A stretch of DNA of 64,000 bases. It comes from Escherichia coli. Its GTDB lineage: Bacteria > Pseudomonadota > Gammaproteobacteria > Enterobacterales > Enterobacteriaceae. The stretch lies in assembly GCF_029227855.1 (NCBI RefSeq), contig NZ_CP074356.1; one strand, given 5' to 3'. Positions 60,001-63,000 of the stretch are shown in pieces (within the stretch, counting starts at the first letter, position 1; the number at the start of each line of letters is the position of its first letter). The position numbers were made by a program.

Positions 60001-63000
60001 AAACCATCGCCCGTGAATTTGCCGATACCGCCCATAAAACGCATGGGCGCTCGATGATTATCCTCGGTGCTGGTGTCAACCATTGGTATCACATGGACAT
60101 GAACTACCGTGGGATGATCAACATGCTGATCTTCTGCGGTTGTGTCGGGCAAAGCGGTGGCGGCTGGGCACACTATGTCGGTCAGGAAAAACTGCGCCCG
60201 CAAACCGGCTGGTTGCCGCTGGCCTTTGCGCTCGACTGGAACCGCCCACCGCGCCAGATGAACAGCACCTCGTTTTTCTACAATCATTCCAGCCAATGGC
60301 GCTATGAAAAAGTCTCTGCTCAGGAGTTACTTTCACCGCTCGCCGATGCCAGTAAGTACAGCGGTCATCTGATTGATTTCAACGTTCGTGCCGAACGTAT
60401 GGGCTGGCTACCTTCTGCGCCGCAGCTGGGGCGTAACTCGCTCAGGATTAAAGCTGAAGCCGACAAGGCCGGATTATCCCCCACAGAATTTACCGCCCAG
60501 GCGCTGAAATCGGGCGATTTACGCATGGCCTGCGAACAACCAGATAGCGGCAGCAATCATCCGCGTAATTTGTTTGTCTGGCGTTCTAACCTGCTTGGCT
60601 CCTCCGGCAAAGGCCACGAGTATATGCAGAAGTATCTGCTGGGAACCGAAAGTGGGATTCAGGGTCAGGAACTCGGTGCCAGCGACGGGATCAAACCAGA
60701 AGAAGTCGAGTGGCAAACTGCGGCGATTGAAGGCAAGCTCGACCTGCTGGTGACGCTCGACTTCCGTATGTCCAGTACCTGCCTGTTCTCCGATATCGTT
60801 CTGCCCACCGCCACCTGGTACGAAAAAGACGATATGAACACCTCGGATATGCATCCGTTTATTCATCCCCTATCTGCGGCGGTCGATCCGGCGTGGGAAT
60901 CACGCAGCGACTGGGAAATCTACAAAGGTATTGCCAAAGCCTTTTCGCAAGTGTGCGTGGGCCATCTTGGCAAAGAAACCGACGTGGTATTACAACCACT
61001 GCTGCATGACTCTCCGGCAGAACTCTCACAGCCGTGTGAAGTGCTCGACTGGCGCAAAGGCGAATGCGATCTGATTCCAGGTAAAACTGCCCAATATTGT
61101 GGCGGTGGAACGCGACTACCCTGCTACCTATGAACGCTTTACCTCGCTCGGGCCATTGATGGACAAACTTGGCAACGGCGGTAAGGGATTTCGTGGAATA
61201 CCCAGGATGAAATCGATTTCCTCGGCAAACTCAACTACACCAAGCGTGAAGGCCCGGCACAGGGGCGTCCGCTGATTGACACCGCCATTGACGCATCAGA
61301 AGTGATTCTGGCTCTTGCACCGGAAACCAATGGTCATGTTGCAGTCAAAGCGTGGCAGGCGCTGGGCGAGATCACCGGACGCGAACATACCCATCTGGCG
61401 CTGCACAAAGAGGACGAGAAGATTCGCTTTCGCGATATTCAGGCGCAGCCACGTAAAATTATCTCCAGCCCCACATGGTCCGGTCTGGAAAGCGATCACG
61501 TTTCCTATAACGCGGGGTACACCAACGTTCATGAGTTAATTCCGTGGCGCACGCTGTCGGGACGCCAGCAGCTCTATCAGGATCATCCGTGGATGCGTGC
61601 TTTTGGTGAAAGCCTGGTGGCTTATCGCCCGCCTATCGACACCCGTAGCGTCAGTGAAATGCGCCAGATACCGCCAAACGGCTTCCCGGAAAAAGCACTT
61701 AACTTCCTGACGCCGCACAGAAATGGGGCATTCACTCAACCTACAGTGAAAACCTGCTAATGCTGACGCTCTCTCGCGGTGGACCAATTGTCTGGATCAG
61801 CGAAACCGATGCCCGTGAACTGACCATTGTCGATAACGACTGGGTGGAAGTGTTTAACGCCAACGGCGCGCTGACGGCCCGCGCGGTGGTCAGCCAACGT
61901 GTACCGCCGGGCATGACCATGATGTATCACGCCCAGGAACGCATTATGAATATTCCTGGTTCGGAAGTAACTGGCATGCGCGGCGGCATTCATAACTCGG
62001 TCACCCGCGTTTGCCCGAAACCAACGCATATGATTGGCGGTTACGCGCAGCTGGCCTGGGGCTTTAACTACTACGGTACCGTCGGCTCGAACCGTGACGA
62101 GTTCATCATGATCCGCAAGATGAAGAACGTTAACTGGCTGGATGATGAAGGTCGCGATCAGGTACAGGAGGCGAAAAAATGAAAATACGTTCGCAAGTCG
62201 GCATGGTGCTTAATCTCGATAAATGTATCGGCTGCCATACCTGTTCGGTGACCTGTAAAAACGTCTGGACCGGTCGCGAAGGCATGGAGTACGCATGGTT
62301 TAACAACGTCGAAACCAAACCGGGCATTGGTTATCCGAAAAACTGGGAAGATCAGGAAGAGTGGCAAGGCGGCTGGGTGCGTGATGTGAATGGCAAGATC
62401 CGCCCGCGTCTGGGCAGCAAGATGGGCGTAATAACCAAAATCTTCGCCAACCCGGTGGTGCCGCAGATTGATGATTACTACGAACCTTTCACCTTCGACT
62501 ACGAACATTTGCATAGCGCACCAGAAGGCAAACATATCCCTACTGCTCGCCCGCGTTCGCTGATTGACGGTAAGCGGATGGACAAAGTGATCTGGGGGCC
62601 AAACTGGGAAGAACTGCTGGGCGGCGAGTTTGAAAAACGTGCCCGCGACCGCAACTTCGAGGCCATGCAAAAGGAGATGTACGGGCAGTTTGAAAACACC
62701 TTCATGATGTACCTGCCGCGCCTGTGCGAACACTGCCTCAATCCCAGCTGCGTGGCGACCTGTCCAAGCGGCGCTATCTACAAACGCGAAGAAGACGGCA
62801 TTGTGCTGATTGATCAGGATAAATGCCGTGGCTGGCGTTTGTGCATTAGCGGTTGTCCGTACAAAAAAATCTACTTCAACTGGAAAAGCGGCAAGTCAGA
62901 AAAATGTATCTTCTGTTATCCGCGAATTGAGTCAGGCCAACCCACCGTATGCTCAGAAACCTGCGTGGGTCGCATCCGGTATCTGGGCGTGCTGCTTTAC

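What the first reader, a model, noticed from the sequence alone, without database searches (positions are those of the whole stretch)
61085..61760. narZ 3' third carries compensating frame shifts that create internal stops
A 2-nt loss near 61093 followed by a 1-nt loss near 61188 restores the frame after about 33 codons but leaves TGA 61131 and TAA 61182 in the reading frame. A third 1-nt loss near 61716 shifts the last 140 codons. The first 2.6 kb of narZ has no lesion, so the damage is clustered rather than spread.
Basis: seen in the sequence. Interest (0 to 1): 0.45.

Follow-up and report, generated by a model that had tools for sequence, protein, structure and literature searches.

The report
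Probable assembly errors in narZ
The three small deletions that break the nitrate reductase gene narZ are really in this sequence, but they belong to a 9.5-kb patch of 17 changes seen in no other assembly of the same E. coli lineage, so they are most likely local sequencing or assembly errors rather than a decaying gene.

Summary
Compared with every relative, narZ (58446-62182) lacks 2 nt at 61088-61091 (GCGC>GC), 1 nt at 61183-61184 (AAA>AA) and 1 nt at 61718 (CC>C). This gives stops at 61131, 61182 and 61758. Putting the four bases back restores a 1246-codon frame that differs from the nearest NarZ only by P353T.

The window is collinear with E. coli JNEC-KY178 at 99.96% identity. All 14 indel events between them lie in 53140-61717, and none lies in the first 53 kb (p about 5e-11). 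They also hit narU (four times), two LRR genes, a porin gene and intergenic DNA. Three private transversions fall in the same zone.

Eleven independent E. coli assemblies lack all 17 changes: four complete genomes and seven drafts or read-run assemblies. Four of the seven are otherwise identical to the window over 6.9-12.5 kb. No truncated product occurs among about 15 billion proteins.

An excess of short-run indels, mostly deletions, with no ordinary divergence does not fit known mutation spectra. It fits residual consensus errors in one assembly (a 4,870,650-bp GenBank chromosome). Read-level confirmation was not possible. Interest is low.

The parts
52167..61718 (.). Zone holding all 17 changes of this part of the window that are private to it: 14 indel events and 3 transversions. 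There are two dense sub-clusters, 56490-57522 (9 indels in 1.03 kb) and 61088-61718 (3 indels in 0.63 kb).
   Evidence: Searches place the changes. Clustering p about 5e-11. The rate is 1.8 changes per kb inside the zone against 0.09 per kb outside it.
58446..62182 (+). narZ (nitrate reductase Z alpha subunit), broken into four reading-frame pieces. It is 3737 nt here and 3741 nt in relatives.
   Evidence: Pfam domains Nitr_red_alph_N, Molybdopterin and Molydop_binding were found.
61088..61091 (+). Lesion 1: loss of 2 nt (GCGC>GC). Its placement is ambiguous within these four bases.
61131..61133 (+). First premature stop (TGA), reached in the shifted frame. It ends the 895-aa N-terminal fragment.
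61182..61184 (+). Lesion 2: loss of one A (GGTAAAGGG>GGTAAGGG). It creates TAA in the shifted frame and returns downstream codons to the original phase.
61716..61718 (+). Lesion 3: loss of one C (GCACCAG>GCACAG). It shifts the frame ahead of the Molydop_binding domain.
61758..61760 (+). Stop (TAA) that ends the middle fragment. It overlaps the ATG of the 140-codon ORF in the native frame.
61760..62182 (+). Native-frame C-terminal 140 codons of NarZ. They hold most of the Molydop_binding domain.
59502..59502 (+). Private transversion C>A (NarZ P353T).
56967..58351 (+). narU (nitrate/nitrite transporter), broken by four private single-base losses at about 57021 (A4>A3), 57121 (T3>T2), 57252 (T3>T2) and 57522 (T5>T4).
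56918..56936 (.). Two private single-base losses in the spacer between the second LRR gene and narU: one C, and one T from a run of seven.
55402..56657 (+). Second LRR-protein gene, with a private loss of A at about 56490 and a +T/-A scramble at 56547-56552.
54079..55339 (+). First LRR-protein ORF. It is an intact 419-aa ORF in sister assemblies and in JNEC-KY178. Here it is frameshifted by a private +A at 54754 (A4>A5).
52808..53909 (+). Porin gene (annotated OmpC-family in RefSeq), frameshifted by a private +G at 53140. It also carries a private G>C at 53344.
52167..52167 (+). Private transversion T>A in yddG. It is the leftmost change of the zone.
   Evidence: The resulting YddG protein is known from one contig only.
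62179..63723 (+). narY (annotated narH, beta subunit). It is intact and has none of the window-private changes; the error zone ends before it.

Best explanation
The three narZ lesions are most likely not mutations of the organism. They are residual consensus errors in one genome deposit.

What is shown: a stretch of about 9.5 kb (52167-61718) carries roughly 1.8 changes per kb. These are mostly miscounts of short runs of the same base, dominated by dropped bases, plus three transversions. The other 54 kb of the window carries no indel at all. The changes fall without regard to gene boundaries. They therefore produce apparent frameshifts in narZ (three), narU (four), two LRR genes and a porin gene, and also two indels in intergenic DNA. 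That the -2 and -1 events in narZ sum to -3 is coincidence.

What is inferred: the technical cause. The most likely one is long-read consensus that was not corrected in a region of poor short-read depth. Eleven of the 14 indels lie in or next to an AT-rich island of 33-46% GC. Other causes of a locally low-quality consensus are possible. Neither the reads nor the assembly method could be examined.
For: 1. The lesions are present exactly as described.
2. The whole window aligns collinearly to JNEC-KY178 at 99.96% identity, with 11 substitutions and 14 gap openings. All 14 indels lie in 53140-61717 and none in 1-53139. The analytic p for such a span is 5.5e-11.
3. Polarity: at all 14 indel sites the window is the odd one out against JNEC-KY178 and GMF054, and against four complete genomes at the 11 sites resolved in the five-way alignment. 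Three transversions in the zone are also private.
4. Seven further independent assemblies encode NarZ identical to that of JNEC-KY178. They are two NCBI drafts and five Logan read-run assemblies. L021, L023, L024 and L026 are identical to the window over 6.9-12.5 kb except at exactly these private sites.
5. Restoring the 4 nt gives one 1246-codon ORF that differs from the nearest NarZ by P353T only.
6. None of seven truncated products, nor the 895-aa fragment as it reads in the window, exists among about 15 billion proteins.
7. At the private substitution rate seen outside the zone, about 0.9 substitutions and about 0.09 indels are expected in the zone. Fourteen indels were seen (Poisson p about 2e-26).
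8. The spectrum is 11 deletions and 3 insertions. Twelve of 13 single-base events change the length of a run that is at least 2 bases long in the relatives, and there is one GC dinucleotide loss.
9. Homopolymer-length indels that cause frameshifts are described as the commonest residual error of long-read bacterial assemblies, and they often survive short-read polishing (PMC8812927).
10. In mutation-accumulation lines, indels run at about one fifth of base substitutions in wild type. They remain the minority in mutS mutants: 382 against 4313, and 273 against 1022 (PMC5854121). That is the opposite of the 14:3 ratio here.
11. The zone overlaps an AT-rich island. Several short-read sister contigs end in it, at 54918, 56231 and 57077.
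Against: - No reads, quality values or assembly metadata could be inspected, so 'error' is an inference from comparison.
- The three narZ lesions lie in DNA of normal GC content (55%), not in the AT-rich island.
- A 3.6-kb stretch (57523-61087) inside the zone carries only one change, so the zone is patchy rather than uniform.
- Most affected runs are only 2-4 bases long, shorter than the typical problem homopolymers of recent nanopore consensus.
- No repeat of 60 nt or more exists in the zone that would explain failed polishing.
- The source genome has five private substitutions in the clean 52 kb. It is therefore a distinct strain, and private real mutations are possible in principle.
Confidence: 0.85

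Rival explanations
1. Real, strain-private localized hypermutation. On this view a single error-prone DNA synthesis episode laid down a shower of slippage errors over about 10 kb. Examples would be break-induced or gap-filling repair by a low-fidelity polymerase without mismatch correction. The episode would have inactivated the porin gene, both LRR genes, narU and narZ at once.
For: The changes are tightly clustered. They are dominated by -1 events in short mononucleotide runs, accompanied by transversions. From my own knowledge, not tested here, that is qualitatively the spectrum attributed to E. coli Pol IV in stress-induced mutagenesis. The affected genes are all dispensable in culture. 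The strain is distinct from its sisters, with five private substitutions elsewhere in the window.
Against: About 1.8e-3 changes per base is, from my own knowledge, roughly ten times or more the in vitro error rate of such polymerases, and it would also need escape from mismatch repair. The zone is patchy, with sub-clusters of 1.0 and 0.6 kb, rather than forming a gradient from one break. No independent assembly shows any of the changes. The +T/-A scramble at 56547-56552 looks like a consensus artefact.
Confidence: 0.08
2. Ordinary pseudogenisation. On this view the narU-narZ locus has become dispensable in this lineage and is decaying by accumulated frameshifts.
For: narZ is broken in other assemblies. 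The same 140-aa C-terminal fragment is called on many contigs (97; 214 index blocks). NarZYWV is a secondary, stationary-phase isoenzyme of NarGHJI (my own knowledge), so its loss is tolerable.
Against: Those other cases have different, heterogeneous lesions. Several are runs of N or scaffold gaps, and none has the CC>C loss. Here there is no accompanying substitution load: sisters are identical apart from the private sites. The indel-to-substitution ratio of 14:3 is the reverse of natural spectra. Intergenic DNA and unrelated neighbouring genes are hit at the same density. narY, immediately downstream, is untouched. About 0.09 indels are expected against 14 observed.
Confidence: 0.04
3. Programmed recoding. 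On this view narZ is expressed through ribosomal frameshifting or stop read-through at these sites.
For: Only that the -2/-1 pair returns to the original frame. A genuine recoded TGA (selenocysteine) does exist nearby in fdnG.
Against: Three separate shifts and two in-frame stops would have to be bypassed. None of the sites is conserved: every relative has the plain uninterrupted frame. No shared slippery motif is evident at the sites.
Confidence: 0.01
4. The window is correct and the relatives carry the errors.
For: None beyond logical possibility.
Against: Eleven independent assemblies from different laboratories and platforms agree with each other against the window at the sites they cover. 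They comprise complete genomes, drafts and Logan read-run assemblies. Their version gives intact reading frames for five genes.
Confidence: 0.01

Closest known systems
Residual homopolymer-length indel errors in long-read or hybrid bacterial genome assemblies (Wick & Holt 2022, Polypolish, PMC8812927)
   Same: Indels in runs of one base, mostly deletions. They produce spurious frameshifts and 'pseudogenes', occur in one assembly only, ignore gene boundaries, and leave intact ORFs when corrected.
   Different: The errors are confined to a 9.5-kb patch instead of being spread genome-wide. Most affected runs are short (2-4 bases). No repeat explains a polishing failure. The sequencing platform of the source is unknown.
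E. coli narZ / NarZYWV, the second respiratory nitrate reductase and paralogue of NarGHJI
   Same: After the four bases are restored, the sequence differs at two of 3741 nt from annotated narZ of JNEC-KY178. Gene order is narU-narZ-narY-narW. The Pfam architecture is Nitr_red_alph_N, Molybdopterin and Molydop_binding.
   Different: As deposited, the frame is broken three times in the last 1.1 kb.
Genuine narZ disruptions in other E. coli assemblies
   Same: The same 140-aa C-terminal fragment is called as a separate gene.
   Different: The underlying lesions differ: a 22-nt and a 13-nt deletion, other single-base indels, N runs and scaffold gaps. They occur in more divergent narZ alleles (95-98% identity). 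None is accompanied by a multi-gene indel cluster.
Stress-induced, Pol IV-dependent -1 frameshift mutagenesis near DNA breaks in E. coli (my own knowledge; not checked in the literature here)
   Same: -1 events in short mononucleotide runs, spatially clustered.
   Different: The density here is far higher than expected for that process. It is patchy over 9.5 kb and lacks any independent confirmation.

Membership tests
NarZ / NarG respiratory nitrate reductase alpha subunit | Domain architecture: N-terminal Nitr_red_alph_N, then the Molybdopterin oxidoreductase domain, then the Molydop_binding domain | tested here: met
   The N-terminal 895-aa fragment has PF14710 and PF00384. The 140-aa C-terminal fragment has PF01568. 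The intact relative has all three.
NarZ / NarG respiratory nitrate reductase alpha subunit | narZ-specific context (narU-narZ-narY-narW-narV next to yddE) and near-identity to annotated narZ | tested here: met
   The best hit has 99.8% identity (two substitutions and four missing bases), the same gene order holds in all relatives, and 5393 of 5426 genomes match over at least 80% of the query.
NarZ / NarG respiratory nitrate reductase alpha subunit | One uninterrupted reading frame of about 1246 codons | tested here: not met
   Searches show four pieces as deposited. The feature is met only after the four missing bases are restored.
Bona fide (biological) pseudogene | Lesions reproducible in independent sequence of the same lineage or strain | tested here: not met
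   The lesions are absent from 11 independent assemblies, and no truncated product is found among about 15 billion proteins. Reads of the source strain itself could not be tested.
Bona fide (biological) pseudogene | Mutation spectrum and load compatible with neutral decay: substitutions at least as frequent as indels, and damage limited to the dispensable gene | tested here: not met
   There are 14 indels against 3 substitutions. Sisters are otherwise identical. Neighbouring genes and intergenic DNA are hit equally. The reference spectra come from PMC5854121.
Local consensus or assembly error | Changes private to one deposit, consisting of run-length miscounts, biased to deletions and indifferent to gene boundaries, whose correction restores all ORFs | tested here: met
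   Restoration of the ORF was computed for narZ only; for the other genes it follows from the intact genes called in the sister assemblies.
Local consensus or assembly error | Low depth or quality, or read disagreement, at the sites in the underlying data | not testable with these tools
   No reads or quality values are available. The source record could not be retrieved.
Programmed ribosomal frameshift or recoding site | Shift site conserved among homologues | tested here: not met
   Every relative examined has the plain unshifted frame.

The most novel reading that the evidence does not exclude
The 17 changes are real. On this reading one isolate suffered a single localized mutational shower over about 9.5 kb, dominated by -1 slippage in short runs, for example an error-prone repair-synthesis tract that escaped mismatch repair. 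That one event would have knocked out a porin gene, two LRR genes, narU and narZ. It would be a natural example of clustered, kataegis-like frameshift mutagenesis in a wild E. coli chromosome.
Probability: 0.07. Interest if true: 0.6.

Novelty: not a real feature. Interest (0 to 1): 0.08.

Why it matters
If the lesions are errors, as argued, the finding has no biological weight. Its value is practical. The record would wrongly list narZ, narU, two LRR genes and a porin gene as pseudogenes, and this could mislead gene-content, pseudogene or metabolic-model comparisons. It also shows that an apparent 'clustered decay' in one gene should be checked against neighbouring genes and sister genomes before being read as biology. 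If the lesions were real, they would document a localized burst of frameshift mutagenesis in a natural isolate, which would interest people who study mutational mechanisms.

Tried and rejected
1. I tried to retrieve the source contig by exact protein look-up, using the NarZ 895-aa fragment and the private YddG and YdeP variants. Nothing is on record in the gene-position index. Only the protein accessions and the contig length (4,870,650 bp) were recovered. The source is not in the RefSeq complete-genome E. coli set, where the best hit is 99.8% identical.

2. I followed the lead that the 140-aa C-terminal fragment occurs on many contigs. It might have meant a shared, real frameshift near 61717. 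Alignment of ten such loci showed unrelated lesions, N runs and scaffold gaps, and none had the CC>C loss. The lead was rejected.

3. I looked for repeats within 51500-64000 that could explain a polishing failure. No direct repeat of 60 nt or more was found. The two LRR proteins are only about 29% identical.

4. I thought the DdpX protein might mark the closest sisters. The 35523 change turned out to be synonymous and private, so that protein is uninformative. The loci nevertheless showed sisters differing from the window by only 3 substitutions and no indel in 13.5-18.2 kb of the clean part.

5. I tried to read Lee et al. 2012 (E. coli mutation accumulation) for the indel-to-substitution ratio, but it is not held. 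I used the Vibrio mutation-accumulation data instead.

6. Programmed frameshifting, and errors in the relatives rather than the window, were both considered and rejected on the conservation evidence.

7. The metagenome and genome DNA-pattern scans were not run. The exact-protein look-ups already covered a much larger set of E. coli assemblies, and a negative scan would have added little.

Full report
**What is in the sequence**

- narZ starts at ATG 58446 and stays open for 895 codons, to TGA 61131-61133.
- A second stop, TAA, lies at 61182-61184.
- The native frame then resumes and runs to TAA 61758-61760.
- The last 140 native codons (61760-62182) lie in a third phase and overlap the start of narY (62179).

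A megablast against 5,426 complete E. coli genomes found narZ in 5,415 of them. In all 30 listed records the matched stretch is 3741 nt, against 3737 nt in the window. Alignment to the two nearest alleles places the missing bases as follows.

| Lesion | Position | Change |
|---|---|---|
| 1 | 61088-61091 | GC lost from ACTGCGCCC |
| 2 | 61183-61184 | one A lost from GGTAAAGGG |
| 3 | 61718 | one C lost from GCACCAG |

Lesion 2 itself creates the TAA at 61182. The first 2.64 kb of narZ carries a single substitution (59502 C>A, P353T).

**Identity of the gene**

RefSeq annotation of the best hit, JNEC-KY178, gives the order narU-narZ-narH(narY)-narW-narI(narV)-yddE. Pfam finds Nitr_red_alph_N and Molybdopterin in the 895-aa fragment, and Molydop_binding in the 140-aa fragment. 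This is narZ.

**The wider picture changes the interpretation**

The whole 64-kb window aligns collinearly to JNEC-KY178 at 99.96% identity, with 11 substitutions and 14 gap openings. Listing them shows that every indel lies between 53140 and 61717 and none lies in the first 53 kb. Besides the three in narZ, the indels are:
- four single-base losses in narU (about 57021, 57121, 57252, 57522);
- two in the spacer between the second LRR gene and narU (56920, 56930);
- three in the second LRR gene (56490, 56547, 56552);
- +A at 54754 in the first LRR ORF;
- +G at 53140 in the porin gene.

The probability that 14 uniformly placed events span 8.6 kb or less of 64 kb is 5.5e-11. Within narZ alone, three lesions in 630 nt is only marginally clustered (p about 0.08). 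The damage is therefore not a property of narZ. It is a property of a zone of about 9.5 kb that includes the 3' part of narZ.

**Polarity and privacy of the changes**

At all 14 indel sites, JNEC-KY178 and GMF054 agree against the window. The five-way alignment with two more complete genomes shows the same at the 11 sites it resolves. Three substitutions in the zone are also private to the window, and all three are transversions: 52167 T>A, 53344 G>C and 59502 C>A. The five private substitutions in the other 52 kb are four transitions and one transversion.

An exact-protein look-up with the intact NarZ of JNEC-KY178 found seven further independent assemblies of this lineage. They are two NCBI drafts and five Logan assemblies of public read runs. 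None carries any of the 17 changes. Four of them (L021, L023, L024, L026) are identical to the window over 6.9-12.5 kb except at exactly these sites. In the clean part of the window, two sister contigs differ from it by 3 substitutions and no indel over 13.5-18.2 kb.

None of seven truncated products predicted from the window, nor the 895-aa NarZ fragment as it reads in the window, is present among about 15 billion proteins. Putting back the four bases restores one 1246-codon narZ that differs from the nearest protein only by P353T.

**Source of the window**

Private protein variants of the window (YdeP, DosP, YddG) exist in one place only. That place is an E. coli chromosome of 4,870,650 bp with GenBank proteins WEP38667.1, WEP38679.1 and WEP38697.1. 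It is not in the RefSeq complete-genome set searched here, and its DNA could not be retrieved.

**Why an artefact is the best explanation**

Private substitutions outside the zone occur at 0.09 per kb. At that rate the zone should hold about 0.9 substitutions. At a generous 1:10 indel-to-substitution ratio it should hold about 0.09 indels. It holds 14 (Poisson p about 2e-26).

Mutation-accumulation data show indels at roughly one fifth of base substitutions in wild-type bacteria. Indels stay the minority even without mismatch repair: 382 against 4313, and 273 against 1022 (PMC5854121). The 14:3 ratio here is the reverse.

The spectrum is 11 deletions and 3 insertions. Twelve of 13 single-base events change the length of a run that is at least 2 bases long in the relatives. 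There is also one GC dinucleotide loss and a +T/-A scramble within six bases. This matches what is described as the commonest residual error of long-read bacterial assemblies, namely homopolymer-length indels that create frameshifts and can survive short-read polishing (PMC8812927).

The events ignore gene boundaries: five genes and intergenic DNA are hit. Eleven of the 14 indels lie in or next to an AT-rich island of 33-46% GC. Several short-read sister contigs end in that island, which hints at poor short-read depth there.

The technical cause is inference. The narZ lesions themselves sit in DNA of 55% GC. The zone is patchy: 9 indels in 1.03 kb at 56490-57522, 3 indels in 0.63 kb at 61088-61718, and a 3.6-kb stretch between them with one change. 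No repeat explains a polishing failure.

**Rivals**

- *Ordinary pseudogenisation* is contradicted by the absence of any substitution load, by the inverted spectrum, and by equal damage to neighbouring genes and spacers.
- *The 140-aa fragment lead.* This fragment occurs on many contigs, which at first suggested a shared lesion. The ten loci examined carry unrelated defects, many of them N runs or scaffold gaps.
- *Programmed recoding* is excluded, because no relative has the shifts.
- *A real localized mutational shower* cannot be excluded without reads. It needs an error density of about 1.8e-3 per base, which from my own knowledge is well above known low-fidelity polymerases, together with escape from mismatch repair. 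I give it about 7-8%.

**Verdict**

The lesions are most probably local errors in one assembly (confidence about 0.85), so as biology this is not a real feature. Read mapping or PCR with Sanger sequencing at the listed sites would settle the question.

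Noticed in passing
window 56967-58351: narU is broken by four private single-base losses (about 57021, 57121, 57252, 57522). They belong to the same private-indel zone as the narZ lesions. A separate 'narU pseudogene' finding would have the same explanation.
   Followed up: yes
window 52808-56657: The porin gene has a private +G at 53140 and G>C at 53344. The first LRR ORF (54079-55339) has +A at 54754. The second LRR gene (55402-56657) has -A at 56490 and a +T/-A scramble at 56547-56552. All three genes are intact in sister assemblies.
   Followed up: yes
window 52500-57500: An AT-rich island (GC 33-46% against about 54% in the flanks) lies between yddG and narU. It carries a porin gene and two tandem LRR-protein genes that are only about 29% identical to each other, and it is probably horizontally acquired. 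RefSeq annotates the first LRR ORF only as a partial pseudogene, although it is an uninterrupted 419-codon ORF in JNEC-KY178 and in sister assemblies.
   Followed up: partly
window 48389-51436 (- strand), TGA at 50849-50851: fdnG has one in-frame TGA at codon 196. From my own knowledge this is the known selenocysteine codon of formate dehydrogenase-N. It is not a lesion, but it could be mistaken for an internal stop.
   Followed up: partly
window about 46091-46794: A segment of about 0.7 kb between yddM and fdnI is absent from strain GMF054. In JNEC-KY178 it is annotated as an IS200C transposase gene, so it is a lineage-specific IS200 insertion.
   Followed up: partly
window 1-5300: The left end of the window holds the 3' end of an ECSE_1600-family autotransporter gene, hipBA and a LysR regulator gene. 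It has no counterpart at this position in GMF054, which carries aldo/keto reductase and related genes instead. This marks a variable-region boundary.
   Followed up: no
window 11987, 13991, 25765, 33791, 35523: Five substitutions outside the indel zone are private to the window relative to JNEC-KY178 and GMF054. Two of them (33791 and 35523) were also checked against sister contigs. The YdeP and DosP variants they create are known from the source contig alone. They may be real strain SNPs or further errors, and this was not resolved.
   Followed up: partly
loci L010-L019 (other E. coli narZ loci): Many public assemblies, especially metagenome scaffolds, call the same 140-aa NarZ C-terminal fragment. 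The causes are unrelated: N runs or gaps, 13-nt and 22-nt deletions, and single-base indels near narZ nt 3225-3310. Split narZ calls are common and heterogeneous in public data.
   Followed up: partly
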